Origin: Alphaproteobacteria bacterium
GTDB taxonomy: Bacteria > Pseudomonadota > Alphaproteobacteria > TMED109
Direction of reading: 5' to 3'
DNA length: 64,000 bases
Assembly: GCA_965115815.1 (NCBI GenBank)
Contig: OZ220465.1
Location: 2,798,222 to 2,862,221 of the forward strand
Below, in pieces: positions 8,646 through 54,650 of the stretch. Numbering within the stretch: the first letter of the stretch is position 1; each line of letters opens with the position of its first letter. The notes beneath the pieces are model-generated. The model saw only the letters and a program-made list of their open reading frames with translations, was not told the DNA's origin and ran no database searches. The position numbers and the translations under genes are program-made.

Positions 8646-8648
8646 TCA

Positions 8649-16263: not shown

Positions 16264-16317
16264 CAGATCCGGACGGGCCCGCATTCGGGCATCCGGTTCC
16301 GTACAGGACAGGTTCGC

Positions 16318-16639
16318 TCAAGCGGTCCCGTAGCCGTGCACGATCTTGGCCGCAGGCAGGGGCAAGCGGCGAAGCAGCGCGGCCATCGGGTCCCAGTTCA
16401 CCCGGGCCGAACGACTGCGCCGCGACCACCACGTTCGCCAGATTCGGATCACCTGATGGCGGAAGCTGGCAATTCGGGCACGGTTCCCGCTCCGGCCGTA
16501 GTAGGCGCAATGGCCTCGTAGGACCCGAGCGAGATCGTTGCGCGGGTAGAGCAAGGGCGCGTGTCGATGCCGTCGGCACCACTCCCGCACCGCTTGCAGC
16601 GCCCGTGCCAGGCACCCCTTGGCCGTGTGCTGGCGCAGC
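16318..16639 (-). pseudogene. group II intron IEP, C-terminal maturase (X) segment
   Basis: ..QHTAKGCLARALQAVREWCRRHRH..LRGHCAYYGRSGN..WRTWWSRRS..LPLPAAKIVHGY. Continues seamlessly from 19230 once IS A and one TSD copy are removed. Confidence 0.8.
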
Positions 16640-19221
16640 CTGCCCATTAGTCACAAAAGCTGTCATTACAAGTGAATTGAGGGGCGTGTTCCCGCGAACG
16701 CAGCGGCCCATTTCCGACACGCCCGGCGATCGTGCGGACCGAATGCTTGACAAGGCTCGCGCACCCTGGCAGGGTGTGCATCATCATGGACTACACTCCC
16801 CTGCCGATCCGGCCCACCTTGGATCAGCCCGAGGCCTTGGCCCGGCTGCAGCCGATCCTGGATCGCTCGTCGAGCCGCTGGGCGGCGACCCGCGCCACCT
16901 GTGCCGCGTTCGCGCTGCGCGATGGACGCGGACATCTGCGCCTGCAGAGCTGCCTGTCGGCACTGGAAGCCCTGGACCGGGCCGGGCGCATCCGGCTGCC
17001 GCCGGCGCGTCCGGGGCCGTCGCACTGGGCCCCGCGCACGGATCCCCGGACGCGGCCGGTGCCGCCGGTGCCGGAGGTTCCGGGCCAAGCGGGGCAGATC
17101 CCCGACCTTGCGGTGTCGCCGGTGACCGACCGCGCCGGCCAGCGCGGGTGGGGGGCGATGATGGCCCGGGAGCATCCTCTCGGGCCGGTGCGGGCGGCCG
17201 GCTCGCAGATCCGCTACTTCCTGACCTCGGGCGAGGGGATTCTCGGCGGCTTCCTGTGTGCGGCGCCGACCCGGGTGCAGGCGGCGCGCGATCGCTGGAT
17301 CGGCTGGACCCCGGCGCAGTGTGCGGCGGGGCGGCACCGGATCGTCGGCCTGGCGCGCTTCCTGATCCGGCCGGCTCTCGGGCGCTGCCGCAACCTCGCC
17401 TCCCGGGCGCTCGGTCTGTGCCTGCGCCGGGTGGTCGGGGACTACGAGGCTCTCTACGGTCTGCGTCCGGTGCTCATCGAAACGTATGTCGGTCCCGAGC
17501 ACGACGGTACCAGCTGCCGGGCGACCGGATGGATCCGGGTCGGGCAGACGGCCGGTCGCGACCGTCATCGCCGGCCGGTGCCGGCCAAGCAGGTCTGGAT
17601 GCGCCCGCTGTGTGCCGACTGGCGTCGGCACTTGGGGGCCCGGGTGGAGCCGCTGACGCCGTGGGCGGGTCTGGACAGTACCCGATGGGCCGAGCAGGAA
17701 CTGGCCGGAGCGGACTTCGGCGATGTCCGGCTGAGCCGGCGTCTCGTATCCTCGGCGGCCCGGCTGGCGCAGACACCCTCGAAGACCTTCGTGACCGCAG
17801 CCCGGGGAGAAGCAGCGATGGTGACCGGCTACTACCGTCTGATGGAACACCCCGATGCCGTCGCCGTCTCGGCGCAGGCGATCCTCGCCCCGCATCGCAA
17901 GCGGACCCGTCAGCGGATCCAGGGACAGAAAACGGTGCTGCTGATCCAGGACGGCTCCGACCTCAACCTGGCGACGCACCAAGCCTGCGACGGTCTCGGC
18001 GTGATCGCCCGCAACCGGGGCTCCCGGGGCACGCTCGGGCTGCACCTGCACACGACCCTCGCCGTCGCGGCGGACGGCATCCCGCTGGGGGTGCCGCGGA
18101 TCGAGTTCGATGCGCCGCCGCCCGAGGGCGCCGCCGCCGACGACCGTGACCCCAAGACCCGGCGCTGGGTCCGGGGGCTGGAAGACAGCGCCGCCCTGAT
18201 CGACGGATTGCACGAGGTTCGGGCCGTGGCCGTCATGGACCGCGAAGGCGATGCCTTCGAGGTCCTGGAGGCCTGGCGACGCCTGGAAGGGCGGATCCAC
18301 ATCCTCGTGCGGGCCCGCCACGACCGCAGTCTCGGCCCGGGACGGTTGAAGCTGTTCGAACGCATGCGCCGGCAGCCGGTCCGGGAGTCCGGGACGGTAT
18401 CGGTGCCGCGGTGGTCGGTACGGCGGGCGACGGGATCGCAGTCGGCCTTCCTCGGACGGGCCGCGCGCACCGCTCCCTACGCCCTGCGCTGGAAGAGCCT
18501 CGAGATCCCGGTTCCCGAAGGACGTGCCGAACCGGGCGCGCGGGCGATCCGCCTGTCGCTGGTCCAGGTCCGGGAAACCGCCGATCCCGAGGATGGAGCG
18601 AAGCCGCTGGAATGGCTGCTCCTGACCTCGCTGCCCGTGCGCGATGCCGGTCAGGCCCGGGAGGTGGTGGGCTTCTACGAGCGGCGCGGGCGCATCGAGG
18701 AGTTCTTCCGCATCCTCAAGTCCGGCTGCGATGGGGAGACGGGAGCCCATCGCACGCGGGAACGCGTCGAACGGGCCGTCGCCCTGCGCGCCGTCCTCGC
18801 CTGGAGACTGTCGGTCCTGGCCCTGCTCGGGCGCGAGACGCCGGGGCTCGAACCCGGGGTGCTGTTCTCCGAGGCCGAGCTGGCGGTGCTCGCGGACTTT
18901 GCCCGGCAGCGCCGCCTGCAGGCGCCCGACCACCTCGGCGCCGCCATCCTTCTCCTGGCCCGCATGGGCGGGTACCTCCAGCGCCGGCACGACGCACCGC
19001 CCGGAGCTCACGTGGTCTGGGAAGGATACGGCCATCTCGCACTCGGCGCCGACATCGTCGAGCGGGCCCGACAGGTCGGCCACCAGAGCGAAGTGAAACG
19101 CTGGATCTCGGGCTGAAAGCCCGGCCAAGGCGTATCGACCCACACCTTTCGCAGACTCACGGCACCTTCGATATGCAGGAACAGCGCCCTTGTCATGACA
19201 GGATTTGTGACTAATGAGCAG
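16640..19221 (+). mobile_element. IS4-family (Tn5-like) insertion sequence A
   Basis: IRs CTGCCCATTAGTCACAAAAGCTGTCAT / CTGCTCATTAGTCACAAATCCTGTCAT (reverse-complemented). 8-bp TSD GGCGCAGC (16632-16639 / 19222-19229). Confidence 0.9.
16786..19116 (+). CDS. DUF4338-domain + Tn5-like IS4-family DDE transposase (apparently intact)
   Basis: N-terminal ..RDRWIGW..RFLIRP..CRNLASRAL..PVLIETYVGPEHDGTSCRATGWIRVGQTAGR (DUF4338). Then a Tn5-type N-domain, LLIQDGSDL, AVMDREGD and the signature YERRGRIEEFFRILKSGC. Confidence 0.9.
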   Translation: MDYTPLPIRPTLDQPEALARLQPILDRSSSRWAATRATCAAFALRDGRGHLRLQSCLSALEALDRAGRIRLPPARPGPSHWAPRTDPRTRPVPPVPEVPGQAGQIPDLAVSPVTDRAGQRGWGAMMAREHPLGPVRAAGSQIRYFLTSGEGILGGFLCAAPTRVQAARDRWIGWTPAQCAAGRHRIVGLARFLIRPALGRCRNLASRALGLCLRRVVGDYEALYGLRPVLIETYVGPEHDGTSCRATGWIRVGQTAGRDRHRRPVPAKQVWMRPLCADWRRHLGARVEPLTPWAGLDSTRWAEQELAGADFGDVRLSRRLVSSAARLAQTPSKTFVTAARGEAAMVTGYYRLMEHPDAVAVSAQAILAPHRKRTRQRIQGQKTVLLIQDGSDLNLATHQACDGLGVIARNRGSRGTLGLHLHTTLAVAADGIPLGVPRIEFDAPPPEGAAADDRDPKTRRWVRGLEDSAALIDGLHEVRAVAVMDREGDAFEVLEAWRRLEGRIHILVRARHDRSLGPGRLKLFERMRRQPVRESGTVSVPRWSVRRATGSQSAFLGRAARTAPYALRWKSLEIPVPEGRAEPGARAIRLSLVQVRETADPEDGAKPLEWLLLTSLPVRDAGQAREVVGFYERRGRIEEFFRILKSGCDGETGAHRTRERVERAVALRAVLAWRLSVLALLGRETPGLEPGVLFSEAELAVLADFARQRRLQAPDHLGAAILLLARMGGYLQRRHDAPPGAHVVWEGYGHLALGADIVERARQVGHQSEVKRWISG

Positions 19222-19482
19222 GGCGCAGCACCGCATGCTTCCATCTCGACCGCACCCAAACATGGGTGAAGCCCAGGAAGTCGAAGGTGGCGCCCACTCC
19301 CGGATCCGGGGGCAGCTTGGCCCGAACGTCAACGGAACGTGTCTTCTCTGCGTGCAGCCTCAGCCCGAACCGGGCCAAGCGCTGGCCGAGGACGGCCAGC
19401 ACCCACTCGCAGTCCCGCTGATGCTCGAAGAGCAACGCGAAATCGTCCGCATACCGCACCCGTTGGCACCGGCCCCGGAGGC
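19222..19482 (-). pseudogene. group II intron IEP, RT palm/thumb segment
   Basis: ..GRCQRVRYADDFALLFEHQRDCEWVLAVLGQRLARFGLRLHAEKTRSVD..FDFLGFTHVW.. (YADD catalytic motif). Confidence 0.8.
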
Positions 19483-19534
19483 CTTTCATGCCGCCACACT
19501 TGACGTGCATCGGTCCGTCCGTCATGGTGACGGC

Positions 19535-22113
19535 ATGCAAGTCGGACTTCGACATCTCCGCGCCGACACGGTCGAGTGGCTGAAGGCGGCGGCGGCCGAG
19601 GACGGCCGGACGCGTCATGCGCTGGCGCGCGAGCTGTGCGAACGCGAGGACTGGCGCCACGCCCGGGGCCAGCCCTGCGTGTCCCAGGCGCGCGGGGTTC
19701 TGCCCGGGATCGCGAAGCGGGCGGGGTTCGTGCTGCCCGCGGCGCGGCCGGGTCCGTGCCGCACGCCGGGCCGTCCGGGCGGCGAGGTGGCGCGCACCGA
19801 CCCGGACCGGAAGCTGGCGTGCACGCTGGCGGATCTCGGGGAGGTCACCCTGGTCCCGGTGGGCGCGGCCCCGGACCGGCGCCGCTGGCGCGAGATGATG
19901 GAGACCCATCATCCGCAGGGTTGGAAGCACCGGCCGGGGAAGGTCCTCAACTTCTGGGTCGTGTCGTCGCGCCACGGCCGTCTCGGCGGCCTCGGGTATA
20001 CGGCCGCAGGCTGGCATCAGGCGGCTCGGGACGCGGCCATCGGCTGGTCGGCGACGGCGCGAGCCGCGAATCTGGTGCAGCTGGTCCAGCAGCACCGCTT
20101 TCTCCTGCTGCCCGGCGTCCGGGTCGCCCGGTTGGCCTCGCACGTGCTGGCCCGGTCGACGGCGCGCCTGGCCGCGGACTGGAAGGCGGCGCACGGGACC
20201 CGGCCGCAGGCGGTCTACACGTATGTGGGACCCGAGCACCGCGGCACCTGCTATCGTGCGGCCGGGTGGAGCCGCTGCGCCGAACCAACCTCGGACCGGC
20301 CGCCGGGAGGCCGTGCGACCGCGCCGAAGGCGGTGTGGATCCGGCCCTTGGCCGAGGGCTGGCGAGAGGTCCTGTCTCGGGAGCGGGGCGCCGTCCTCGG
20401 TACCACGTCGGAGCCGTGGCGGCCCGGGAACGCCGACTGGGCCGACATCGAGTACGGCCGCGGTTCGCATCCCGACGGCCGCGTGCGCACGCGGGTGCTG
20501 GCGATGGGCCGGGCTTGGGAGAACGCTCCGGGCGCGTCCCTGCCCGTGATCTTCCCGTCCGCCGCCGCGCAGAAGGCCGCGTACCGGCTGTTGTCCAGCG
20601 CCCGGGTCACGATGGAACACATCCTCGATCCCCACGCCGAAGCCACGGTCGAACGCTGCCGGCAGGAGCGGGTCATCCTCGCCCTGCAGGACACCACAAC
20701 GCGAATTACAACGGGCACTGCAAGACGAAAGGGCTGGTGAACCTTGGAGGCGGGGGCTCGGGCACCCGGGGAATCCTTGCCCATTTCACGCTGGCGGTGA
20801 CCGAGGGCCGCCGCCCGCTCGGCGTGATCGACCTCAACGCCACCCAGCGCGAGGGCACGGAAGCCCCGGACCGCGACGCCACCGAGCGCGAGGACACGGA
20901 AGCCCCGGACCGCGACGCCGCCGAGCGCGAGGGCACGGAAGCCCCGGACTGCGACGCCACCGAGCGCGAGGGCACGGCAGCCCCGGACTGCGACGCCACC
21001 GAGCGCGAGGGCACGGAAGCCCCGGACCGCGACGCCACCGAGCGCGAGGGCACGGAAGCCCCGGACTGCGACGCCACCGAGCGCGAGGGCACGGAAGCCC
21101 CGGACCGCGACGCCACCGAGCGCGAGGGCACGGAAGCCCCGGACTGCGACGCCACCGAGCGCGAGGGCACGGACCGCGACGCGGTCAAGCCGGAGAGTGT
21201 GCGCTGGCTTCAGGGACTCGAACGCGCCCGTCAGCTGGCCGCCGCCTGCCCCGACACCCGGGTGGTCACGGTCTGCGACCGCGAAGGCGACATCTGGGAA
21301 AGGTTCGTACAGGCGCGCGCCGGCGGCGTCGGGCTCCTCGTACGTTCCGACCGCGGCCGGCAGCGACGGGTGGTCCGCAGCGACGGCTCCGTGGCGGACC
21401 TGTGGGAGGCCATGGCGGAGCCGCCGGTTCTGGGAACGAAGACGGTCCACCTCGCCGCCTGCGGCGGACCCCGTCCGCGCCTCCAGCGCACCGTGATCCT
21501 CGAGCTCCGCGCCACCGCCGCCGTCTACCTCGTGCCGCCGAAAAACCGGGACGACCGGACGCCGATGCCCGTGCTCGCCGTCTCGGTCCGGGAAGCCCGA
21601 CCGCCCAAGGGCCGCGATCCGCTCCACTGGGTGCTGCTCTCCACCGAGGGCGAGGCCGACCTCCAGCACGCTCGACGCATCGTCGCCTGGTACGAGGCAC
21701 GCTGGACCCTCGAGGAGTACTTCCGGGTCCTCAAGGTCGGCGCCCGGATCGAAGAACGCAAGCTGCAGGACGCCGACGACCTGCGCACGTGCCTCGCTTT
21801 CGATGCCATCACCGCATGGCGGGTCATGGACCTCAAGCGCCTCGCGCGCGATCCGCCCGACCGCCCCGCCCTTGAGTTCTTCACCGACCGCGAAATCGGG
21901 GTTCTCTACCGATGGCTCCGGTACGATCGCATCCTCCGGGCCCCGCCTGGAAAGCCGCCCGACCTCCGCACCTTTGTGGTTGATCTCGCCCGCATGGCGG
22001 GCTTCCGGCCCAGCAAGCGTCAGCCGCTTCCGGGTACTGCGAAAATCTGGCAGGCGTGGCGGAAATTCAAGACCGGACTCGAATTCGTCCAATCAGAAGG
22101 GAACCGCACATGA
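19535..22113 (+). pseudogene. DUF4338 + Tn5-like transposase of IS B, frameshifted near 20700 and carrying a 39-bp repeat array
   Basis: Frame 1: ..RDAAIGW..RFLLLP..AVYTYVGPEHRGTCYRAAGW..ILALQDTTT. Frame 2 continues NYNGH..TVCDREGD..YEARWTLEEYFRVLKVG. Confidence 0.8.
20839..21180 (+). repeat. 39-bp tandem repeat, ~8.7 units, in frame in the IS B transposase
   Basis: Unit GCCACCGAGCGCGAGGGCACGGAAGCCCCGGAC(C/T)GCGAC encodes ATEREGTEAPD(R/C)D. The last unit is internally shortened. Confidence 0.95.
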
Positions 22114-22711
22114 GCCAGATTGCGTCAACAACGGGCTATTGAAAGGTCTCGGTCCGGGAAGCCCGACCGCCCAAGGGCCGCGATCCGCTCCACTGGGTGC
22201 TGCCCTCCACCGAGGGCGAGGCCGACCTCCCGCACGCTCGACGCATCGTCGCCTGGTACGAGGCACGCTGGACCCTCGAGGAGTACTTCCGGGTCCTCAA
22301 GGTCGGCGCCCGGATCGAAGAACGCAAGCTGCAGGACGCCGACGACCTGCGCACGTGCCTCGCTTTCGATGCCATCACCGCATGGCGGGTCATGGACCTC
22401 GAGCGCCTCGCGCGCGATCCGCCCGACCGCCCCGCCCTCGAGTTCTTCACCGATCGCGAAATCGGGGTTCTCTACCGATGGCTCCGGTACGATCGCATCC
22501 TCCGTGCCCCGCTTGGAAAGCCGCCCGACATCCGCACCTTTGGGGTCGATCTCGCCCGCATGGCGGGCTTCCGGCCCAGCAAGCGTCAGCCGCTTCCGGG
22601 TACTGCGAAAATCTGGCAGGCGTGGCGGAAATTCAAGACCGGACTCGAATTCGTCCAATCAGAAGGGAACCGCACATGAGCCAGATTGCGTCAACAACGG
22701 GCTATTGAAAG
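21580..22711 (+). repeat. 566-bp direct tandem duplication of the right end of IS B (21580-22145 and 22146-22711)
   Basis: The second unit starts immediately after the first right IR (..GGGCTATTGAAAG|GTCTCGGTCC..). A few SNPs separate the units. ORF 22197..22679 repeats the transposase C-terminus. Confidence 0.9.
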
Positions 22712-23346: not shown

Positions 23347-25474
23347 CACGGCCATCCCATGCTAGGTTTGTTGGAAGGCTGGGTTCCGCTGATTCCGGAT
23401 GATTCGTATTGGTGCTGGCTTTTTGTGAAGCGGCGTGGTATCCGTGGTGGTCATGGAACGCGCCGCGGATGTTTTCGAGACGACTCCGGAGGGTTTTGCG
23501 CTCCGGGATGGGGTGGTGCGCTTGGCGCGGCCGGATGAGGTGTGTCGCTGGAACCGTGTGGTGGACCGTCATCACGATCTTGGTTTCAAGCAGTTTGCGG
23601 GTCGAGGTCTGCGCTACGTGTTCACGTGGCGCGGGCGGTGGATTGGCGCTGCGGGCGGGCAGACGGGCGCCTTCCGTTGTGCGCCGCGGGACCGTTGGAT
23701 GGGTTGGCGCCGCAAAGAACCGTTGGAGCGGTTGCATCTGATCGGAAACCACACGAGGTTTGTGATTCTGGGAGGTCGCCGGGCGTTTCGGGGTCTTGCC
23801 TCGTGTGCGTTGTCGCGGATGCAGCGGCGTCTCAGCGACGACTGGGAGGCTGCGTACGGCAATCCGTTGCTGGTGGCGGAATCGTTTGTCTCGCCGACGA
23901 AGTTCCGCGGCACCCTGTACAGGGCAGCGAACTGGAAGTACGTGGGCAGGAGCAAGGGCTATGCACGTGCCAACGGGCGCTATACGGATCCGCACGGGGA
24001 GGCGAAGGATCTGTACGTGGTTCCGCTGCGTCGCGACGCCTGTCGTCGGTTGCGGGATCGTGCGCCGCTTCCTGCGGCGTGGGAGTTGCGGGCGACGCAG
24101 AGCGGCCGGTCGGCGCGGGAGTTGCGCTCGATGTACCCGCATTTTGCGGCGCTTTCCGACTTCCGGCGCGCGCAGGGGCGCACGCACGGCATCGCCTCGG
24201 TGCTATGCGTGATCGTGCTGGCGCGGCTGGCGAATCGGCACGGCGCGGTGGCGGCGGCACGCTACGCGAAGGCGATGACACAGAAGGATCTGGCGCAGAT
24301 CGGTGCGTGGAAGAACCCGGACACCGGCCGGTAGGAACCGGTGTCCAAATCGACCGTGCACCGGGTGCTGCAGAACACCGACCCGGCGTGGATAGAGGAG
24401 GCACTGCGGCGCTGGGCGCAGCCGCGCCTGCGGGTCGGCCGCGCGATCGCGGTCGACGGCACGCGCATTCGCGGCGCCAACCGCACCGGCGAGGATCCTA
24501 ACGAGACGGTCTCGCGGATCGAGCACGGGACCGGCATGCCGGTCTCGATCCTCAACGATCCTGACGAAGGCGGGGAGATCGCCGCCGTCCACGCCGCGCT
24601 CGAGACCGCGCCGGTGGCCGGCCGTCTACTCACGCTCGACGCGCTCCACACCACCCGCGAGACGGCACGACGGATCGTCGAGACCCATGGCGCCGACTGG
24701 ATGATGACGGTCAAGGGCAACGCTCCCAAGACCTTCGAGACGTTCGAGAGCATCCACTGGGAGACCACGAGCACGGGACGCTACAGCGAAAAGCCCACGC
24801 TCGAGCACGGCCGCATCGAGCAACGCAGCATCGAAGTCTTCACCCCGCCCGCGAAGATGATCCACGATCCCCATGTCAAACCGATCTTCCGTGTCACCCG
24901 GCGCGTCGAATTCAAGAAATCCGGAAAACGGACCATGGAACACGCCTACGGCAGGACTTCGGTCGCGGCCGACCGCGCCTCGCCGCAACCGCTCCTCACA
25001 TGGAACCGCGGTCACTGGGTGGTCGAAAGCCATCACCCCATCCGCGATACCACCTTCCGCGAAGACGACTCCAGGCTCCGGGCCCGCAACGCACCCGCAA
25101 ACCACGCGATCCTCAACACCCTTGCCCTTGCCGTCATCCTCCACAACCCGCGGAAGCTGCCCCAGCCCTTCCACCGCTTCGCCGACGCCCGTCACCCCTA
25201 TGCCGACAAGCGCAAGCAGGTCCTGCACGCCGTCACAAGACCCGGCTGACTACGCTCACACCCCGACCGAAACCGCACGTATCCAAGCCGGGCCCCCAAC
25301 CCGGCCGGCCTCTCGCTCGCCCCGGATCCGCCGAAACGGACCCCTCGCGCCTAAATCCGCGCCACCACCGGGCCGCAAACGTCCGCACATCTCACAATCG
25401 CAGACTCGAACGCGTCGACCCGCGTCGCGATCGAGACTCCGATCGCATCACAGCAACAAGCATGGGATCTTCTT
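23347..25474 (+). mobile_element. ISAs1-like insertion sequence C, copy C1
   Basis: Ends CACGGCCATCCCATGCTAGG.. / ..AGCATGGGATCTTCTT. 9-bp TSD CCCGCATCC (23338-23346 / 25476-25484) inside the intron IEP. Confidence 0.85.
23435..25249 (+). pseudogene. DUF4338 + ISAs1-family transposase, single in-frame TAG (24332-24334)
   Basis: ..RDRWMGW..LLVAESFVSPTKFRGTLYRAANWKYVGRSKGYAR (DUF4338). ..LTLDALHTTRETARRIVETHGADWMMTVKGNAP..NRGHWVVESHHPIRDTTFREDDSR (ISAs1 core). C2 reads GRYEP (TAT) where C1 has TAG. ATG at 23453 is an alternative start. Confidence 0.85.
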
Positions 25475-25656
25475 GCCCGCATCCAGTCCTTGTCCATCAG
25501 GGGGTGCACCGAGGGGAACACCCGGTCCGGGTACTTCCTCGCCTGCGCGGCGATCCACTGTGGTTTCGTTGACGTGTTGGCAGATCTCAGTGTCTCTTCC
25601 ACCGTTTCCCTCCAGGGGTTCGGTTCCTGCAGCACGCCCCTTCCCTCCAGCGGCAC
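25475..25656 (-). pseudogene. group II intron IEP, N-terminal segment
   Basis: GTG 25656. VPLEGRGVLQEPNPWRETVEE..YPDRVFPSVHPLMDKDWMR joins in frame to EAWRRTRKDG.. at 23346. Confidence 0.7.
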
Positions 25657-47242: not shown

Positions 47243-47338
47243 CCACCGGGTACTCACAGCGGAAGGAGTCGATCGCCCGGCGGGGGAGGTCGAGGTCGAG
47301 GCTGCGCCGCGCCCTGCCTATGACTCACATCAGTAGGC

Positions 47339-49253
47339 TTGACCGGAGTGCATGGACCCTCTACGGTGCGGCTCCTGTCGGCCATGGAACCCGTGCACCG
47401 CATCTTGAGACAGCCGGCGCATCTGCGCCGGCTGCAGGCGCTTCGGTCCCGGGAGCCGCCGGCCCGCCGTCGGGCCGGGGTCCGTCGGGTGTGTCGGGAG
47501 TTTCGCCTGATCGACGCGCGGGGTCGCTGGCGCGCGCGCAGTTGCCAAGCGGTATTGGAAGATCTGGAGCCCACCCGGCAGGTGCAGTTGCCTCCGCCCC
47601 GCCGGGGCCTGGGTGGGGGCGCTCTCCGGCGGCTGGGCGCGGGAGTTCCGGCGCCGTCGGCGGTGCCTCCGGAAGCGGGTGCGCTGCACGATCTGCGCTT
47701 GGTGCCGGTGACCGGGGAGGCGGACCGGCGGATCTGGAACGAGCTGATGTTTCGGGAGCATCCGTGAGGGGCGGTGCGGCATGTGGGCGCCCAACTCCGG
47801 TATCGGGTTCGATCGGAGCATGGCATCTTGGGGGCCTTGGGCTTTGCGGCGCCGGCCTTGCGCCTGGCTTCCCGGGACCGATGGATCGGGTGGGACGAGA
47901 CCACGCGGTCGCAACACCTGAACCACGCGGTGATCGGTCGGAGCCGGTTCCTGATCCGACCGTCGGTGCGCTGCCGGAACCTGGGCTCCCGGGTGCTGGG
48001 GATGGTGCTGGCCCGGCTGCCCGACGAGATCAAGGCCCGGTACGGGGATCGTCCCCTGCGGGTCGAAACCTTCGTGGATCCGGAAACCCATGCGGGCGCC
48101 GTGTTTGCCGCCGCCGGCTGGGAGCGGGTGGGAGAGACCACCGGGCGGGGGCGGTTCGCCCGTCCCGGGCAGGAGCGGCGGTCGGTCAAGGCGGTGGGGA
48201 TGCGTCCGCTGCGGAGCGACGGGCGGGCGGTTTTGGGTGTGGCACCGGCGCCGGCGGAGGCCTTGGGTCCGGCCGACGGACGGGAGCGGGGGAGCTGGAC
48301 CGCGAACGAGTTCGGCGGAGCTCCGCTGGGGGACCGTCGGCTCAGCCGTCGGTGGGTCACGAGTGCGTCCCTGATGGCCGACCAACCCGGCGCATCGTTC
48401 CCGGCCGCGGCCCGGGGTCAGCGGGCCTTGGTCACCGGGTACTACCGGAGGATCGACCCGCCGGCCGCGTCGGCGGTCCCACCGGAGGCCCTTCCGGCTC
48501 CGTACCGGGAGCGCACCCGCCGACGCATGGCCTCCTGCACGACGGTGCTGAGGATCCAGGACGGATCGGACCTCAACTTCGCGACCCATCCGAAGTGCGG
48601 CGAGCTCGGTCTCATCGGCCGCAACCGGAACGCGTCGGGCACCCGGGGTCTGCACCTGCATTCCACGCTGGCGGTCGACGCGGACACCGGCATTCCCCTC
48701 GGTGTCCCCCGCATCGAATCCGACGCGCCGGACGGCCGGGCCGAGAAGGGCAAGCCGCTCGAAGAACGGAAATCCGCCCGCGGGATGCGGGGGTTGCGAG
48801 ACACCTCGGAGCGGGTTCCGGACGGCGTGCGGGTCGTCTCCGTACTCGATCGGGAGGCGGATTTCTTCGCCCGGTTCGCCGAGCGGCAGCGGCTGGGCAC
48901 CGTCGATCTTCGGGTCCGGGCCCGCCCCAACCGGTCCTTGGGCAAGGACGAAGAGAAGCTCTTCGAGCCACGGGCAGCGGAACCCTCGGCCGGATCCTTG
49001 GAGATCGAAATCGCCCGCCCGTCGGCCCGCACCTCCACCCGCACCCAGAAGGCCCAGGCGCTGCGGGAAGCGCGGGTCGCCAAGGTATCCCTGCAGTTCC
49101 GGCGCTTCGACCTGCCTCCTCCAGGGAACGGAACCGGCGCGCACGACCCCGTGCCCATGACGGCGGTCCGCAGGACCGAAGAAGATCCGCCGGCCGGCGT
49201 GGAGCCCCTGCACGGGATCCTGCTCACCCGCCTGCCGGTATCGACCCGGAAGG
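47339..49253 (+). pseudogene. D1 transposase, N-terminal 3/4 (in-frame TGA 47765-47767, then interrupted by C2)
   Basis: Collinear with the D2 protein. D2 has TGC (Cys) where D1 has TGA. Many Trp->Gly changes. Confidence 0.85.
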
Positions 49254-49341
49254 CACGGCCATCCCACGCTAGGTTTGTTGGAAGGCTGGGTTCCGCGGAT
49301 TCCGGATGATTCGGATTGGTGCTGGCTTTTTGTGAAGCGGC

Positions 49342-50876
49342 GTGGTATCCGTGGTGGTCATGGAACGCGCCGCGGATGTTTTCGAGACGACTCCGGAGGG
49401 TTTTGCGCTCCGGGATGTGGTGGTGCGCTTGGCGCGGCCGGATGAGGTGTGTCGCTGGAACCGTGTGGTGGACCGTCATCATGATCTTGGTTTCAAGCAG
49501 TTTGCGGGTCGAGGTCTGCGCTACGTGTTCACGTGGCGCGGGCGGTGGATGGGCGCTGCGGGCTGGCAGACGGGCGCCTTCCGTTGTGCGCCGCGGGACC
49601 GTTGGATGGGTTGGCGCCGCAAAGAACCGTTGGAGCGGTTGCATCTGATCAGAAACCACACGAGGTTTGTGATTCTGGGAGGTCGCCGAGCGTTTCGGGG
49701 TCTTGCCTCGTTTGCGTTGTCGCGGATGCAGCGGCGTCTCAGCGACGACTGGGAGGCTGCGTACGGCAATCCGTTGCTGGTGGCGGAATCGTTTGTCTCG
49801 CCGACGAAGTTCCGCGGCACCCTGTACAGGGCAGCGAACTGGAAGTACGTGGGCAGGAGCAAGGGCTATGCACGTGCCAACGGGCGCTCTACCGATCCGC
49901 ACGGGGAGGCGAAGGATCGGTACGGGGTTCCGCTGCGTCGCGACGCCTGTCGTCGGTTGCGGGATCGTGCGCCGCTTCCTGCGGCGTGGGAGTTGCGGGC
50001 GACGCAGAGCGGCCGGTCGGCGCGGGAGGTGCGCTCGATGTACCCGCATTTTGCGGCGCTTTCCGACTTCCGGCGCGCGCAGGGGCGCACGCACGGCATC
50101 GCCTCGGTCCTGTGCGTGATCGTGCTGGCGCGGCTGGCGAATCGGCACGGCGCGGTGGCCGCGGCACGCTACGCGAAGGCGATGACGCAGAAGGATCTGG
50201 CGCAGATCGGTGCGTGGAAGAACCCGGACACCGGCCGGTATGAACCGGTATCTAAATCGACCGTGCACCGGGTGCTGCAGAACACCGACCCGACGTGGAT
50301 CGAGGAGGCTCTGCGGCGCTGGGCGCAGCCGTGCCTGCGGGTCGGCCACGCGATCGCGGTCGACGGCACGCGCATTCGCGGCGCCCACCGCACCGGCGAG
50401 GATCCTAACGAGACGGTCTCGCGGATCGAGCACGGGACCGGCATGCCGGTCTCGATCCTCAACGATCATGACGAAGGCGGGGAGATCGCCGCCGTCCACG
50501 CCGCGCTCGAGACCGCGCCGGTGGCCGGCCGTCTACTCACGCTCGACGCGCTCCACACCACCCGCGAGACGGCACGACGGATCGTCGAGACCCATGGCGC
50601 CGACTGGATGATGACGGTCAAGGGCAACGCTCCCAAGACCTTCGAGACGTTCGAGAGCATCAACTGGGAAACCACAAGCACGGGACGCTACCGCGAAACG
50701 CCCACGCTCGAGCACGGCCGCATCGAGCCGCGCAGCATCGAAGTTTTTACCCCTCCAGCGAAGATGATCCACGATCCTCATGTCAAACCGATCTTCCGTG
50801 TCACCCGGCGCGTCGAATTCAAGAAATCTGGAAAACAGACCATGGAACACGCCTACGGCAGGACTTCGGTCGCGGC
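49342..50876 (+). pseudogene. C2 DUF4338 + ISAs1 transposase, interrupted by D2 (remainder 53306-53577)
   Basis: Continuous 514-aa ORF up to the D2 insertion, with no TAG at the C1 position. The C-terminal rest is ..NRGHWVVESHHPIRDTTFREDDSR.. after D2. Confidence 0.85.
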
Positions 50877-53305
50877 CTGCCTATGACTCACATTGTTTAT
50901 CTGGACGTAAGCGCTGGTACAGCCCGCTGGACTGATCCAGCTTCAACAGACGTTCGTAGGTTTGAGCCATCGTCGCCAGCTGAGTGTACCCTCGCCAGAT
51001 CACTGTGGGGCCGGGCGCGGGGTCGTTGCGACGGTTGAGATAGCCTCCGAGGATCGCCATGGTGTGCACGGCGGTTCCTAGGTTGTCGGGTCGGCACGGA
51101 AGCTTGCGCTCAAGGGCGAAATCCTTGAGCACCAGGATTTCCGTCGTGCAGAACAGGACCTCGGCGGGCAGTTCGGGGGTTTCCCGTCCGAGCATGACCA
51201 TGGCGAAGAGTCGCCAAGCGATCACGGCCTTGATCGTGACCGCCCGTTCGATCCGGTGTCCTTCCCGGTGGTTGAGGAATTCCGCCTTGCATCCGCTTTT
51301 CAGGACCCGGTGCCAATCCTCGATCCGCCAGCGCAGGCGGTACCGTTCCAGCACCCGCCGCGCCTCCTTCCGGGTCGATACCGGCAGACTGGTGAGCAGG
51401 ATCCAATTCAGGGGCTCCACGCCGTCCGGCGGATCTTCTTCGGTCACGCGGACCGCCGTCATGGGCACGGGGTCGTGCGCGCCGGTTCCGTTCCCGGGAG
51501 GAGGCAGGTCGAAGCGCCGGAACTGCAGGGATACCTTGGCGACCCGCGCTTCCCGCAACGCCTTGGCCTTCTGGGTACGGGTGGAGGTGCGGGCCGACGG
51601 GCGGGCGATTTCGATCTCCAGGGATCCGGCCGAGGGTTCCGCGGCCCGTGGCTCGAAGAGCTTCTCTTCGTCCTTGCCCAGGGACCGGTTGGGGCGGGCC
51701 CGGACCCGAAGATCGACGTTGCCCAGCCGCTGCCGCTCGGCGAACAGGGCGAAGAAATCCGCCTCCCGATCAAGTACGGAGACGACCCGCACGCCGTCCG
51801 GAACCCGCTCCGAGGTGTCTCGCAAGCCCCGCATCCAGCGGGCGGATTTCCGTTTTTCGAACGGCTTGCCCTTCTCGGCCCGGCCGTCCGGTGCGTCGTA
51901 TTCGATGCGGGGGACGCCAAGGGGAATGCCGGTGTCCGCGTCGACCGCCAGCGTGGAATGCAGGTGCAGACCCCGGGTGCCCGACGCGTTCCGGTTGCGG
52001 CCGATGAGACCGAGCTCGCCGCACTTCGGATGGGTCGCGAAGTTGAGGTCCGATCCGTCCTGGATCCTCAGAACGGTCGTGCAGGAGGCCATGCGCCGGC
52101 GGGTGCGCTCCCGGTGCGGAGCCAGAAGGGCCTCCGGTGGGACCGCCGACGCGGCCGGCGGGTCGATCCTCCGGTAGTACCCGGTGACCAAGGCCCGCTG
52201 ACCCTGAGCGGCGGCCGGGAACGATGCGCCGGGCTGATCGGCCATCCGGGACGCACTCGTAACCAACCGGCGGCTGAGCCGACGGTCCCCCAGCGGAGCT
52301 CCGCCGAACTCGTTCGCGGTCCCGCTCCCCCGCTCCCGTCCGTCGGCCGGACCCAAGGCCTCCACTGCCGTCGACGCCACGCCCAGGATCCGGCGCCAGT
52401 CGCTCCGCAGCGGACGCATCCCCACCGCCTTGACCGACCGCCGCGCCTGCCCGGGGCGGGCGAACCGCCCCCGCCCGGTGGTCTCTCCCACCCGCTCCCA
52501 GCCGGCGGCGGCAAACACGGCGCCCGCATGGGTTTCCGGATCCACGAAGGTTTCGACCCGCAGGGGACGATACCCGTACCGGGCCTCGATCTCGTCGGGC
52601 AGCCGGGCCAGCACCCTCCCCAGCACCCGGGAGCCCAGGTTCCGGCAGCGCACCGACGGTCGGATCAGGAACCGGCTCCGACCGATCACCGCGTGGTTCA
52701 GGTGTTGCGATCGCGTGGTCTCGTCCCACCCGATCCATCGGTCCCGGGAAGCCAGGCGCAAGGCCGGCGCCGCAAAGCCCAAGGCCCCCAGGATGCCGTG
52801 CTCCGACCGAACCCGATACCGGAGTTGGGCGCCCACATGCCGCACCGCCCCGCACGGATGCTCCCGAAACATCAGCTCGTTCCAGATCCGCCGGTCCGCC
52901 TCCCCGGTCACCGGCACCAGGCGCAGGTCGTGCAGCGCACCCGCTTCCGGAGGCACCGCCGACGGCACCGGAACTCCAGCGCCCAGCCGCCGGAGAGCAC
53001 CCCCACCCAGGCCCCGGCGGGGCGGAGGCAACTGCACCTGCCGGGTGGGCTCCAGATCTTCCAATACCGCTTGGCAACTGCGCGCGCGCCAGCGACCCCG
53101 CGCGTCGATCAGGCGAAACTCCCGACACACCCGACGGACCCCAGCCCGACGGCTGGCCGGCGGCTCCCGGGACAGAAGCGCCTGCAGCCGGCGCAGATGC
53201 GCCGGCTGTCTCAAGATGCGGTGCACGGGTTCCATGGCCGACATGAGCCGCACCGTAGAGGGTCCGTGCACTCCGGTCAAGCCTACTGATGTGAGTCATA
53301 GGCAG
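50877..53305 (-). mobile_element. IS4-family (Tn5-like) insertion sequence D, copy D2 (apparently intact)
   Basis: Same ends as D1. 8-bp TSD GTCGCGGC / GGCGCGGC (one mismatch) at 50869-50876 / 53306-53313. The target is continuous in C1. Confidence 0.9.
50881..53280 (-). CDS. DUF4338 + Tn5-like IS4-family DDE transposase (intact, 799 aa)
   Basis: ..RDRWIGW..RFLIRPSVRCRNLGSRVL..PLRVETFVDPETHAGAVFAAAGWERVGETTGRGR. LRIQDGSDL, VLDREAD, YRLRWRIEDWHRVLKSGC. Confidence 0.9.
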   Translation of the reverse strand: MTGVHGPSTVRLMSAMEPVHRILRQPAHLRRLQALLSREPPASRRAGVRRVCREFRLIDARGRWRARSCQAVLEDLEPTRQVQLPPPRRGLGGGALRRLGAGVPVPSAVPPEAGALHDLRLVPVTGEADRRIWNELMFREHPCGAVRHVGAQLRYRVRSEHGILGALGFAAPALRLASRDRWIGWDETTRSQHLNHAVIGRSRFLIRPSVRCRNLGSRVLGRVLARLPDEIEARYGYRPLRVETFVDPETHAGAVFAAAGWERVGETTGRGRFARPGQARRSVKAVGMRPLRSDWRRILGVASTAVEALGPADGRERGSGTANEFGGAPLGDRRLSRRLVTSASRMADQPGASFPAAAQGQRALVTGYYRRIDPPAASAVPPEALLAPHRERTRRRMASCTTVLRIQDGSDLNFATHPKCGELGLIGRNRNASGTRGLHLHSTLAVDADTGIPLGVPRIEYDAPDGRAEKGKPFEKRKSARWMRGLRDTSERVPDGVRVVSVLDREADFFALFAERQRLGNVDLRVRARPNRSLGKDEEKLFEPRAAEPSAGSLEIEIARPSARTSTRTQKAKALREARVAKVSLQFRRFDLPPPGNGTGAHDPVPMTAVRVTEEDPPDGVEPLNWILLTSLPVSTRKEARRVLERYRLRWRIEDWHRVLKSGCKAEFLNHREGHRIERAVTIKAVIAWRLFAMVMLGRETPELPAEVLFCTTEILVLKDFALERKLPCRPDNLGTAVHTMAILGGYLNRRNDPAPGPTVIWRGYTQLATMAQTYERLLKLDQSSGLYQRLRPDKQCES

Positions 53306-53803
53306 GGCGCGGCCGACCGCGCCTCGCAGGGAACCGCGGTCACTGGGTGGTCGAAAGCCATCACCCCATCCGCGATACCACCTTCCGCGAAGACGACTCC
53401 AGGCTCCGGGCCCGCAACGCACCCGCAAACCACGCGATCCTCCACACCCTTGCCCTTGCCGTCATCCTCCACCACCAGCGGAAGCTGCCCCAGCCCTTCC
53501 ACAGCTTCGCCGACGCCCGTCACCCCTATGCCGACCAGCGCAAGCAGGTCCTGCACGCCGTCACAAGACCCGGCTGACTACGCTCACAACCCGACCGAAA
53601 CCGCAAGGATCCAAGCCGGGCCACCCAACCCGGCCGGCCTCTCGCTCGCCCCGGATCCGCCGAAACGGACCCCTCGCGCCTAAATCCGCGCCGCCACCGG
53701 GCCGCAGACGTCCGCACATCGCACAATCGCAGACTCGAACGCGTCGACCCGCGCCGCGATCGAGACTCCGATCGCATCACAGCAACAAGCATGGGATCTC
53801 CTT

Positions 53804-54299
53804 GACCCGGAAGGAGGCGCGGCGGGTGCGGGAACGGTACCGCCTGCGCGGGCGGATCGAGGACGGGCACCGGGTCCTGAAACGCGGATGCAAGGCGGAA
53901 TTCCTCCACCACCGGGAAGGACACCGGATCGAACGGGCGGTCACCATCAAGGCCGTGATCGCCTGGCGACTCTTCGCCATGGTCATGCTCGGACGGGAAA
54001 CCCCCGAACTGCCCGCCGAGGTTCGGTTCTGCACGACGGAAATCCTGGTGCTCAAGGATTTCGCCCTTGAACGCAAGCTTTCGTGCCGACCCGACAACTT
54101 GGGAACCGCCGTGCACACCATGGCGATCCTCGGGGGCGATCTCAACCGTCGCAACGACCCCGCGCCCGGCCCCACAGTGATCTGGCGAGGGTACACCCAG
54201 CTGGCGACGATGGCTCAAACCTACGAACGTCTGTTGAAGCTGGATCCATCCAGCGGGCTGTACCAGCGCTTACGTCCAGATAAACAATGTGAGTCATGG
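53804..54299 (+). pseudogene. D1 transposase, C-terminal part
   Basis: ..EARRVRERYRLRGRIEDGHRVLKRGCKAEF..RPDKQCES. Continues from 49253 once C2 and one TSD copy are removed. Confidence 0.85.
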
Positions 54300-54650
54300 G
54301 CAGGCCGCGCCAGCGGCGGGCGCGTCCGGATCGCGCCGCCCCCCAAGGAACGCCTCCAGGTACACGTCCTGCGGCGGCCGGGCCGCGACGATCGCCGGGC
54401 TCCGACCCGTCGTCGCCTTCGATCCCTACCCGGCCGCCGGCCGCCATCCACACCTCCGACGCGGTCCGCCCCGATGGCCCATCTTGGAGAGGGTCCCTCC
54501 TACAACGTCAAGCGCAGATCTCCGGCGGAGGGAAACGGCAGCCCACGGAACCCGCTCCACCGGACCGCACGGCGGACCCGCGACGTCCCGCGCGGGGTGC
54601 CCGGTCGCGTTGCGGACCCTGCACCATTCACGCGCGCGATTTCCAGCGCC

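What the first reader, a model, noticed from the sequence alone, without database searches (positions are those of the whole stretch)
16786..19116. DUF4338 (Druantia DruA-like) domain fused to the N-terminus of two unrelated DDE transposase families
Three diverged Tn5-like IS4 transposases (A 16786-19116, B 19535-22113, D 50881-53280 / 47339-) and the ISAs1-type transposase of element C (23435-25249, 49342-) all start with a ~250-290-aa module. The module carries the DUF4338 hallmarks: ..RDRWIGW.., ..RFL(I/L)(R/L)P.., NL(A/G)SR.L and ..ETFVDP/ESFVSP...(Y/F).A(A/T)(G/N)W..VG.T.G.. In A, B and D it precedes a complete Tn5-type DNA-binding and catalytic region, so it is an add-on and not a replacement. 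The same domain is the signature of DruA in the Druantia anti-phage system, where its function is unknown. Recruitment by two transposase superfamilies in one genome suggests a portable function such as DNA-end or target recognition.
Basis: partly seen in the sequence, partly recalled or inferred. Interest (0 to 1): 0.65.

Follow-up and report, generated by a model that had tools for sequence, protein, structure and literature searches.

The report
Mom-like acyltransferase domain on transposases
Four insertion sequences in this window encode transposases that carry an extra N-terminal enzyme-like domain (a GNAT acyltransferase related to the phage Mu DNA-modifying protein Mom), and the same pairing recurs in at least five transposase lineages and many bacterial phyla, which suggests an undescribed enzymatic step in transposition.

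Summary
Elements A, B and D (Tn5/IS50-like, IS4 family) and C (ISAs1 family) all start with a PF14236 (DUF4338/"DruA") domain (52-89 bits; cut-off 27). The C and D modules are homologous (35% identity, E 6e-22). A and D1 are intact 776- and 799-aa ORFs. B is frameshifted. C1 has an in-frame TAG. C2 and D2 are interrupted by nested insertions. All elements have inverted repeats and 8-10 bp target duplications.

The module is a strongly basic GNAT fold (pLDDT 89). Its nearest sequence and structure relatives are Mom-type phage enzymes. Its near-invariant H, R and S residues align with Mom's H58, R111 and S124.

The pairing is not local. There are at least 574 genomic loci across about ten phyla, most with one uninterrupted GNAT-to-Tn5 reading frame. 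The domain is also fused to IS701 and to a second IS4 clade, and lies as an overlapping upstream gene next to IS66, ISAs1-like and Tn5-like transposases. GNAT dN/dS (about 0.25) is no higher than that of the transposase. No Druantia genes are present.

Most likely it is an active acyl- or aminoacyl-transferase tethered to the transposon ends and acting on nucleic acid. Activity and substrate are inferred, not shown.

The parts
16640..19221 (+). IS element A (Tn5/IS50-like, IS4 family), 2,582 bp. Imperfect terminal IRs CTGCCCATTAGTCACAAA... and CTGCTCATTAGTCACAAA.... Flanked by the direct repeat GGCGCAGC (16632-16639 and 19222-19229). Inserted in a group II intron ORF.
   Evidence: 47-nt inverted repeat, 79% complementary
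16786..19116 (+). Intact 776-aa ORF of A: small helical N-domain, GNAT (PF14236), Tnp_DNA_bind, DDE_Tnp_1, Dimer_Tnp_Tn5.
   Evidence: The exact protein is on record on a 4,566,314-bp contig.
16786..17685 (+). N-terminal module of A (aa 1-300). The Pfam DruA hit covers aa 121-234. H, R and S equivalents are kept, but D247 is G and Y256 is C (D1 numbering).
19483..22711 (+). IS element B (Tn5-like), decayed, 3,229 bp. Ends CTTTCATGCC... and CTTTCAATAGCC... (reverse complement). 9-bp target duplication CCCGGAGGC (19474-19482 and 22712-22720). Frameshift near 20700-20740, 39-nt x 8.8 array at 20830-21173, and a 566-bp tandem duplication (21580-22145 / 22146-22711).
   Evidence: GNAT deviations R154N, Y155F, E243Y, G265A, G269S.
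23347..25475 (+). IS element C1 (ISAs1 family), 2,129 bp. IR core ATCCCATGCT. 9-bp target duplication CCCGCATCC (23338-23346 and 25476-25484).
23435..24334 (+). C1 first ORF: GNAT module (aa 1-235, no N-terminal helical domain) plus the start of DDE_Tnp_1_assoc. It ends at the in-frame TAG at 24332-24334.
24341..25249 (+). C1 DDE part (ISAs1 transposase core), in frame with the first ORF across the TAG.
   Evidence: (NF033564: 136 bits; cut-off 70)
47306..49253 (+). D2, 5' part of a second D copy (96% identical to D1). Frameshifted near 47767. Interrupted by C2.
49254..50876 (+). C2, 5' part of a second C copy (97% identical to C1). It has TAT where C1 has TAG (50239-50241). Cut by the D1 insertion.
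50877..53305 (-). IS element D1 (Tn5-like), 2,429 bp. IRs CTGCCTATGACTCACAT. Target duplication GGTCGCGGC / GGCGCGGC (one base lost). Inserted into C2.
50881..53280 (-). Intact 799-aa ORF of D1: helical N-domain (aa about 19-76), GNAT (aa about 118-300), complete Tn5-type transposase (aa about 311-799).
52351..53280 (-). N-terminal module of D1 (aa 1-310). This was modelled and used as the query throughout.
53306..53804 (+). C2, 3' part (resumes after D1).
53805..54309 (+). D2, 3' part (resumes after C2). ACCCGGAAGG is duplicated at 49244-49253 and 53805-53814.

Best explanation
SHOWN. A, B, D (Tn5/IS50-like, IS4 family) and C (ISAs1 family) are genuine insertion sequences. Their transposases begin with a strongly basic GNAT-fold domain of Pfam family PF14236. 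In A, B and D a small helical (probably winged-helix) domain precedes it. The GNAT's closest relatives in sequence and fold are Mom-type phage enzymes. The module is an ancient, selected, integral part of these elements and of related ones in many phyla.

INFERRED MECHANISM. The GNAT is a catalytically active acyl- or aminoacyl-transferase. It sits directly N-terminal to the domain that binds the transposon ends, or is translationally coupled upstream of the transposase. The transposase therefore brings it to the element's ends or target DNA. There it modifies nucleic acid. The most Mom-like possibility is acylation of an adenine N6 in double-stranded DNA, using acyl-CoA or aminoacyl-tRNA as donor. 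The mark would feed back on transposase binding or expression. This would parallel the way host Dam methylation gates IS10 and IS50 (established knowledge of the IS4 family).

It is not a Druantia defence component here.
For: Domain and fold:
- PF14236 hits on all five copies.
- AF2 model of D1 aa 1-310: pLDDT 88.9, pTM 0.81.
- Foldseek against PDB: 109 hits at E<=1e-3, and every listed hit (top 50) is a GNAT-superfamily structure. Phage Mu Mom 8bv8 ranks second with the highest query TM-score of the top hits, 0.39.
- Foldseek against viral models: the best hits are about 190-aa phage GNAT/NAT_SF and uncharacterized proteins at E 7e-8, and an annotated Mom ranks 8th at 1.5e-6.

Link to Mom:
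- The only other Pfam family hit by relatives is Mom PF25680: P0099 26.9 bits, L106 27.4 bits (GA 27.1), 4 of 49 fused representatives.
- hhalign of the family against a Mom alignment: E 0.0021 over 156 columns. It pairs H141 with Mom H58, R203 with R111, N214 with N121, S217 with S124, D247 with D149, and Y256 with Y159.
- R111 and S124 are essential in Mom, which transfers glycine from Gly-tRNA to adenine N6 in dsDNA (PMC13219725).

Conservation and selection:
- Over about 370 members: H141 98%, R203 98%, S217 96%, E243 98%, R179 98%, K284 96%.
- GNAT dN/dS is 0.11-0.39, against 0.23-0.55 for the transposase part of the same ORFs.
- Basic surface: median net charge +12 and pI 10.3 in 300 members, similar to Mom at pI about 10.

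Recurrent linkage to transposases:
- 47 of the top 150 cluster representatives are at least 680 aa. Of the 49 sequences scanned (those 47 plus window D1 and A), 42 match Tnp_DNA_bind, 30 DDE_Tnp_1 and 29 Dimer_Tnp_Tn5.
- At least 574 genomic loci; about 55 of the best 80 have one uninterrupted frame of about 720-810 codons.
- Fusions to IS701 and to a second IS4 clade.
- Overlapping upstream gene next to Tn5-like, IS66 and ISAs1-like transposases.

The elements are real: IRs and 8-10 bp target duplications, and nested D2[C2[D1]] insertions.
Against: - No activity, cofactor or substrate has been tested.
- The hhalign probability is low (13%).
- No window protein itself reaches the Mom Pfam model.
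- The HTH-like insertion that is essential in Mom (residues 175-209) is absent. The family has instead a two-helix insert between strands 3 and 4 that carries RDRWIGW.
- Mom's essential R151 has no clear equivalent.
- D247 is only 57% Asp in the family. It is Gly in A and Ser in C. Y256 is Cys in A and Phe in D1.
- The loop after strand 4 (R-x-x-N-L-[A/G]-S) keeps the small residue typical of CoA-binding GNATs, so the donor could be acyl-CoA and the acceptor a protein.
- Aravind and colleagues assume a protein target for this domain in DndF fusions.
- High pI is partly expected in a 65-70% GC genome, although it holds family-wide.
- The Dam analogy is an idea, not evidence.
Confidence: 0.45

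Rival explanations
1. The GNAT is a protein lysine or N-terminal acetyltransferase that uses acetyl-CoA. It acetylates the transposase itself or a host nucleoid or transposition cofactor, and so ties transposition to metabolic state.
For: Most GNATs hit by Foldseek are small-molecule or protein acetyltransferases, such as RimI, HP0935 and Naa60. The post-strand-4 loop keeps [R/Q]-x-x-N-x-[A/G], which is close to the CoA pyrophosphate-binding motif Q/RxxGxG/A (motif from established knowledge). PMC10853773 lists this domain among co-effectors that target proteins.
Against: By sequence, the family hits only Mom and no canonical acetyltransferase Pfam family. The conserved residues line up with Mom's catalytic set. 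The domain is very basic, at pI about 10.3, which fits a nucleic-acid partner better.
Confidence: 0.2
2. The domain is catalytically inert. It serves as an extra nucleic-acid-binding, targeting, oligomerisation or auto-inhibitory module of the transposase, which is the reader's 'DNA-end or target recognition'.
For: It has a basic surface and sits next to the end-binding domain. An HTH-like N-domain is present in A, B and D. There are substitutions at Mom-equivalent D247 and Y256 in A, C and D1. Pseudo-enzymes are common among GNATs (general knowledge).
Against: H, R, S, E and K side chains in the cleft are 96-98% invariant across 50%-identity clusters and five transposase families. dN/dS is as low as for the catalytic transposase core. 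Such a pattern is unusual for a mere binding surface, which must recognise different IRs in each family.
Confidence: 0.2
3. The GNAT acts on tRNA. It would either acetylate charged tRNA like the toxins TacT and AtaT, giving the IS an addiction or growth-arrest effect, or bind aminoacyl-tRNA as a sensor that couples transposition to translation status.
For: Mom uses Gly-tRNA and superposes with FemX and TacT tRNA-binding modes. The domain has a basic surface. tRNA cytidine acetyltransferase TmcA (2zpa) is among the Foldseek hits.
Against: No antitoxin-like partner gene lies in these compact elements (ORF maps). Elements reach more than 20 copies per genome, which is hard to reconcile with a toxin. 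Nothing here discriminates tRNA from DNA.
Confidence: 0.1
4. The module is a defence or counter-defence device in the Druantia sense. That is, it would be a DruA-type component carried by the IS, for example to mark DNA against, or to mimic, a Druantia system.
For: It belongs to the same Pfam family as DruA. The domain is also fused to DndF defence proteins.
Against: There is no druB-E or any very large helicase ORF in the window. PADLOC DruA models do not recognise A, B or C and barely touch D. The nearest relatives are all transposase-linked.
Confidence: 0.05

Closest known systems
Tn5/IS50 transposase (IS4 family; PDB 1MUH, 4DM0)
   Same: The C-terminal approximately 490 aa of A and D are a complete Tn5-type transposase. 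The evidence is phmmer E 5e-35 to Tn5 Tnp with DDE and YREK residues, Foldseek TM 0.85, NF033590, IRs starting CTG, and about 9-bp target duplications.
   Different: An additional approximately 310-aa N-terminal region (helical domain plus GNAT) is absent from Tn5, IS10 and every solved transposase. No fusion of this kind was found among 72,556 plasmid records.
Phage Mu Mom (PF25680; PDB 8BV8): Gly-tRNA-dependent adenine-N6 DNA glycyltransferase
   Same: GNAT fold, strongly basic. It is the best-scoring related sequence family. Equivalents of Mom H58, R111, N121, S124 (and usually D149 and Y159) are conserved.
   Different: Similarity is only borderline (hhalign E 2e-3; Pfam about 27 bits in some relatives, none in the window proteins). 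It lacks Mom's essential HTH-like insertion. It has its own RDRWIGW two-helix insert. It keeps an Ala/Gly where CoA-binding GNATs have one and Mom has Glu. It is attached to transposases rather than being a late phage gene.
Druantia type I DruA (namesake of PF14236)
   Same: It shares the PF14236 domain.
   Different: There is no Druantia operon. PADLOC DruA profiles (407 and 675 positions) are essentially not matched. The proteins here are transposases. DruA's own function is still unreported in the literature I could search.
ISAs1-family transposases
   Same: The C-terminal part of C matches NF033564 and PF13808/PF01609. C has IRs and a 9-10 bp target duplication.
   Different: It has an N-terminal GNAT module of about 235 aa. 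In this genome's lineage an in-frame TAG separates the GNAT+HTH part from the DDE part.
Two-ORF insertion sequences with an upstream accessory or regulatory gene (e.g. IS66 tnpA/tnpB/tnpC; OrfA of IS3 and IS1)
   Same: In relatives the GNAT is a separate gene that overlaps the transposase start by 1-4 nt, like a co-translated accessory protein.
   Different: The accessory protein is an enzyme-fold GNAT, not a small HTH regulator. The same accessory is shared by several otherwise distinct IS families.

Membership tests
Pfam PF14236 (DruA / DUF4338 domain family) | Match to the family HMM above the gathering score (27 bits) | tested here: met
   A 52, B 55.3, D1 89.3, C1 72.4, C2 68.2 bits. Only profile positions about 40-225 of 297 are covered.
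Druantia type I system (DruA as a system component) | Encoded with druB-druE, including the large DUF1998 helicase DruE | tested here: not met
   The largest ORFs in the window are under 900 aa. They are carB, a molybdopterin oxidoreductase, FCSD, TldD and an IS110 transposase. The genes flanking the modules are the transposase domains themselves.
Druantia type I system (DruA as a system component) | Recognised by the curated DruA models of PADLOC | tested here: not met
   No hit for A, B, C1 or C2. D1 matches only a 44-residue stretch, E 3.5e-5.
Druantia type I system (DruA as a system component) | Confers anti-phage protection | not testable with these tools
   This needs plaque assays.
GNAT acyltransferase superfamily | GNAT fold (mixed beta-sheet with helices alpha1-alpha4, beta4-alpha3 cofactor loop) | tested here: met
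   AF2 pLDDT 88.9. Foldseek finds 109 PDB hits at E<=1e-3, and every listed hit (top 50) is a GNAT-superfamily structure. Independently stated in PMC10853773.
GNAT acyltransferase superfamily | Acyl-CoA pyrophosphate-binding motif Q/R-x-x-G-x-G/A after strand 4 | tested here: inconclusive
   The family has [R34%/Q16%]-x-x-N(78%)-L-[A87%/G9%]-S(96%). The fourth-position Gly is replaced by Asn and the last small residue is kept.
GNAT acyltransferase superfamily | Acyl-transfer activity | not testable with these tools
   This needs biochemistry.
Mom family (PF25680), DNA adenine aminoacyl-transferases | Match to the family HMM above the gathering score (27.1 bits) | tested here: not met
   No hit for the window proteins. 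Relatives are borderline: P0099 26.9, L106 27.4, L085 22.7 bits.
Mom family (PF25680), DNA adenine aminoacyl-transferases | Catalytic residues R111 and S124 (essential), with H58, D149, Y159 | tested here: met
   hhalign pairs them with R203, S217, H141, D247 and Y256. Conservation is 98%, 96%, 98%, 57% (+24% Glu) and 69%. An R151 equivalent is unclear.
Mom family (PF25680), DNA adenine aminoacyl-transferases | HTH-like insertion (Mom residues about 175-209) required for activity | tested here: not met
   The model goes from strand 6 (262-267) through a loop to strand 7 (284-290) with no helical insertion. That Mom segment aligns to a gap.
Mom family (PF25680), DNA adenine aminoacyl-transferases | Gly-tRNA-dependent modification of adenine in dsDNA | not testable with these tools
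   This needs in vitro assays and nucleoside LC-MS.
IS4 family, Tn5/IS50-like (elements A, B, D) | Transposase matches NF033590 above cut-off (160 bits), with DDE and YREK residues | tested here: met
   A 252, D1 293, B 3' part 242 bits. D97, D188, E326 and Y-R-E-K equivalents are seen in the alignment to Tn5 Tnp. Foldseek TM 0.85 to 4dm0.
IS4 family, Tn5/IS50-like (elements A, B, D) | Terminal inverted repeats and about 9-bp target-site duplication | tested here: met
   A: 8-bp repeat GGCGCAGC. B: 9 bp CCCGGAGGC. D1: 9 bp with one base lost.
ISAs1 family (element C) | Transposase matches NF033564 above cut-off (70 bits), with the PF13808 N-domain | tested here: met
   C1 DDE part 136 bits and C2 90 bits. 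PF13808 scores 41.9 bits in C2 (cut-off 32.3).
ISAs1 family (element C) | Single uninterrupted transposase ORF | tested here: not met
   C1 has an in-frame TAG. At least eight diverged copies in the same genome end at the same codon. C2 has TAT but is cut by D1.

The most novel reading that the evidence does not exclude
Transposases of several IS families carry their own Mom-like DNA-base-modifying enzyme. It would write a covalent acyl or aminoacyl mark on adenines at the element's ends or target. This would give the element a self-encoded epigenetic switch, a built-in equivalent of Dam control of IS10 and IS50, that couples transposition to replication or prevents re-excision. By extension, PF14236 in Druantia type I (DruA) and in DndF fusions would be a DNA-modifying or DNA-mark-related enzyme.
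Probability: 0.15. Interest if true: 0.9.

Novelty: new variant of a known kind. Interest (0 to 1): 0.62.

Why it matters
1. Bacterial DDE transposases are thought of as DNA-binding plus RNase-H-fold catalytic proteins. A conserved, selected acyltransferase domain shared by at least five IS lineages in about ten phyla points to an undescribed enzymatic or regulatory layer in transposition.

2. It gives a concrete, testable lead for the long-unknown PF14236/DruA domain. The domain appears to be a Mom-related, nucleic-acid-facing GNAT, and the residues to mutate are defined (H141, R203, S217, E243 in D1 numbering).

3. There is a practical consequence for annotation. Every close relative whose gene context was examined here is transposase-linked, so a PF14236 hit, now named 'DruA', should not by itself be read as a Druantia defence gene.

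4. The compact, intact elements A and D1 are ready-made constructs for experiments.

Tried and rejected
- Exact-product look-ups of D1, A, P0001 and P0121 for genomic context returned nothing. The source organism could not be named. The cluster table shows only that A's product lies on a 4,566,314-bp NCBI/ENA contig.
- The 64-sequence alignment A2 was too diverse to seed a genome scan. A 12-sequence alignment worked. The window's own species was not among the hits (best 62% identity).
- A sequence search of the PDB with the module profile found nothing meaningful.
- tblastn against plasmids found only plain Tn5-like transposases and no fusion.
- hhalign against the single Mu Mom sequence was weak (E 0.013, 52 columns). 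It improved with a Mom family alignment.
- Literature searches for DUF4338, PF14236, DruA and GNAT+transposase found no description of the fusion.
- Pfam found nothing in the first 115 aa of A or D. A hand-typed consensus of that region gave only a sub-threshold winged-HTH hint, so the HTH assignment rests on predicted secondary structure.
- Rejected: the fusions are artefacts of pseudogenes or read-through. Against this, about 55 of 80 loci have uninterrupted frames and dN/dS is well below 1.
- Rejected: recent within-genome shuffling of the module between C and A/B/D. Identity is only 33-35%, and GNAT clades follow the partner family.
- Rejected: a shared subterminal IR motif between C and A/B/D. 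The ends are unrelated (CTGCC.../CTTTCA... against ...ATCCCATGCT...).


Full report
**Observation**

The region is an insertion-sequence graveyard in a 65-72% GC genome. The scores are A 52 bits, B 55, D1 89, C1 72 and C2 68, against a gathering score of 27.

Downstream, A and D1 have Tnp_DNA_bind, DDE_Tnp_1 and Dimer_Tnp_Tn5, and match NCBIfam NF033590 (IS4 family) at 252 and 293 bits. C has DDE_Tnp_1_assoc plus DDE_Tnp_1 and matches NF033564 (ISAs1). The C and D modules are homologous: 35% identity over 167 aa, E 6e-22. A, B and D carry about 110 extra N-terminal residues that C lacks.

They fall on the most conserved columns of the family.

**Anatomy of the elements**

- A spans 16640-19221. 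It has 17-30 nt imperfect IRs that begin CTGCC, and it is flanked by the direct repeat GGCGCAGC. Its 776-aa ORF is intact.
- B spans 19483-22711 and has a perfect 9-bp duplication, CCCGGAGGC. It is decayed. It has a frameshift just after the first catalytic Asp, a 39-nt x 8.8 tandem array, a 566-bp tandem duplication of its 3' end, and substitutions at five near-invariant GNAT positions.
- C1 spans 23347-25475 and has a 9-bp duplication, CCCGCATCC.
- A, B and C1 all sit inside one group II intron (RT fragments).
- Further on there is a nest. D2 (47306-49253 plus 53805-54309) is split by C2 (49254-50876 plus 53306-53804). C2 is in turn split by the intact D1 (50877-53305).
- The target duplications and the nesting show that these elements have transposed as units that include the extra module.

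**The module is an add-on**

The C-terminal 489 aa of D1 align to Tn5 transposase at E 5e-35, with the DDE triad and the YREK motif in place. A full-length AF2 model (pLDDT 87.6, pTM 0.71) matches Tn5 transposase 4dm0 with TM 0.85 over 484 columns. GNAT structures match the N-terminal part separately.

**What the module is**

An AF2 model of D1 residues 1-310, built with a 64-sequence alignment, has pLDDT 88.9 and pTM 0.81. Residues about 19-76 form a small helical domain. This is probably a winged helix, but it is supported only by predicted secondary structure and a sub-threshold HTH_24 hint from a hand-made consensus. Residues about 118-300 form a GNAT fold. This fold has a family-specific two-helix insert between strands 3 and 4 that carries RDRWIGW.

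Foldseek against the PDB gives 109 hits at E<=1e-3, and every listed hit (top 50) is a GNAT-superfamily structure. Phage Mu Mom (8bv8) ranks second and has the best query TM-score among the top hits. Against viral models the best hits are about 190-aa phage GNAT/NAT_SF and uncharacterized proteins (E 7e-8), and an annotated Mom ranks 8th. That DUF4338 is a GNAT was already noted in passing by Aravind's group, for DndF fusions (PMC10853773).

At the sequence level, the only other Pfam family that relatives hit is Mom PF25680. The scores are 26.9 and 27.4 bits against a cut-off of 27.1, and 4 of 49 fused representatives hit it.

A profile-profile alignment to a 29-member Mom alignment spans the whole core (156 columns, E 0.0021, low probability). 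It pairs the following residues (module, then Mom):

- H141 with H58
- R203 with R111
- N214 with N121
- S217 with S124
- D247 with D149
- Y256 with Y159

Across about 370 family members the conservation is H141 98%, R203 98%, S217 96%, E243 98%, R179 98% and K284 96%. D247 is Asp or Glu in 81%, and Y256 is Tyr or Phe in 83%. The core is strongly basic family-wide, with median charge +12 and pI 10.3, like Mom.

There are differences from Mom. Mom's essential HTH-like insertion is absent. R151 has no clear counterpart. The loop after strand 4 keeps an Ala or Gly, as CoA-binding GNATs do.

**How widespread the pairing is**

- An exhaustive phmmer search finds 5,134 clusters (at 50% identity) at E<=1e-3. 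Of the best 150, 47 are at least 680 aa with the module at the N-terminus.
- Of the 49 sequences then scanned (those 47 plus window D1 and A), 42 match Tnp_DNA_bind, 30 DDE_Tnp_1 and 29 Dimer_Tnp_Tn5.
- A scan of one genome per species found at least 574 loci. The taxa include Paracoccaceae, Bryobacterales and other Acidobacteriota, Gamma- and Betaproteobacteria, Desulfuromusa, Spirochaetia, Planctomycetota, Verrucomicrobia, Bacteroidales, Dehalococcoidia and a candidate-phylum Doudnabacteria genome. Some genomes have more than 20 copies.
- About 55 of the best 80 loci have one uninterrupted frame of 720-810 codons from the GNAT into the transposase.
- In Thiorhodovibrio the same two parts are separate genes that overlap by 4 nt.
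- Metagenomic relatives show the domain fused to IS701 transposases (L106, L117), to a second IS4 clade NF033592 (L085, L102, L105) and to ISAs1 (L084, L086, L087).
- The domain also occurs as an overlapping upstream gene of IS66-family transposases (L091, L096, L099, L111) and of an ISAs1-like transposase (L094).

A neighbour-joining tree of the GNAT core groups the sequences by partner transposase family (no bootstrap). The associations are therefore old and stable, not recent shuffles. The modules of C and of A/B/D in this window descend from different clades.

Pairwise dN/dS among 26 intact fused ORFs is 0.11-0.39 for the GNAT and 0.23-0.55 for the transposase part. The module is therefore at least as constrained as the enzyme it accompanies.

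**Relation to Druantia**

The link is nominal. The window has no dru genes. Its other large ORFs are carB, a molybdopterin oxidoreductase, a flavocytochrome c sulfide dehydrogenase, TldD and an IS110 transposase. The PADLOC DruA models do not recognise A, B or C, and touch D1 over only 44 residues. I found no paper that assigns a function to DruA or describes the transposase fusion.

**Mechanism**

*Shown.* The module is a selected, basic, Mom-related GNAT. It is physically or translationally coupled to DDE transposases of several families, and always lies upstream of the end-binding domain.

*Inferred.* It is an active acyl- or aminoacyl-transferase that the transposase brings to the element's ends or target, where it acts on nucleic acid. 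The most specific version is a Mom-like base modification that feeds back on transposase binding or expression, analogous to Dam control of IS10 and IS50 (established knowledge). I put about 0.45 on 'active enzyme acting on nucleic acid at the transposition complex' and about 0.15 on the specific DNA-adenine-mark version.

*Rivals.* These are a protein acetyltransferase (0.2), a catalytically dead binding or regulatory domain (0.2), a tRNA-directed activity (0.1), and a defence or counter-defence role (0.05).

**Verdict**

The interpretation needs three corrections: the pairing is not genome-specific, the module is not Druantia-related in function, and an enzymatic role is more likely than a recognition role. 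The architecture is visible in databases but, as far as I could find, undescribed. I rate it a new variant of a known kind (insertion sequences) with real mechanistic interest.

Noticed in passing
window 24332-24334 (C1); 50239-50241 (C2); hairpin 24319-24346: C1 has an in-frame TAG between the GNAT+HTH part and the DDE part, where C2 has TAT. At least eight diverged (82-95% identical) C-copy products from the same genome all end at this codon (...NPDTGR). The stop is therefore ancestral to this lineage, not a one-off. The TAG lies near the tip of a predicted hairpin (GGACACCGG...CCGGUGUCC, -27.5 kcal/mol, z -2.5) that is lost in C2. This may be programmed read-through, or an OrfA-only product.
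   Followed up: partly
window 20830-21173: A 39-nt unit repeated 8.8 times (95% matches) sits inside B's transposase, between the first and second catalytic Asp. It encodes 13-aa TEREGTEAPDRDA-like repeats.
   Followed up: partly
window 21580-22145 and 22146-22711: There is a 566-bp tandem duplication (98% identical) of the 3' end of element B, including its right terminal repeat.
   Followed up: no
window about 16229-16639, 19230-19482, 22712-23346: One group II intron (reverse-transcriptase/maturase ORF fragments on the minus strand) has been hit independently by three GNAT-transposase elements (A, B and C1).
   Followed up: partly
loci L012, L017, L027, L030, L031, L041, L043, L045: Tn5-type GNAT fusions from different phyla share a change of reading frame at the same place near the transposase C-terminus (D1 residues about 722 to 731). 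This may be a conserved feature rather than decay.
   Followed up: no
loci L084, L086, L087, L089: ISAs1-type GNAT fusions from four metagenome samples share a +1 frame change at the same position in the DDE domain.
   Followed up: no
loci L091, L096, L099, L111 (and L094): A stand-alone PF14236 gene of about 290-330 aa lies directly upstream of an IS66-family transposase gene (an ISAs1-like one in L094). Four of the five pairs overlap by 1-135 nt, and in L096 the genes are 3 nt apart. The usual IS66 tnpA/tnpB genes were not looked for.
   Followed up: partly
window 8380-8650, 14105-14185, 15970-16082, 46930-47119, 62375-62565, 63641-63834: A short repeat of about 190 bp occurs in at least five copies in both orientations. 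It includes a 39-nt hairpin-forming pair at 46933-46971 / 47079-47117. It may be a MITE or an IS end.
   Followed up: no
window 58226-58676: This is a long array of short tandem repeats (period a multiple of 9 nt) inside an ORF-rich region that is duplicated at 57030-58251 / 60695-61917.
   Followed up: no
window 54650-54713: There is a perfect 32+32 nt palindrome (CAGCCGCCGCCTCCCCCCGGGCCCCGAGCGCT / its reverse complement) with no spacer.
   Followed up: no
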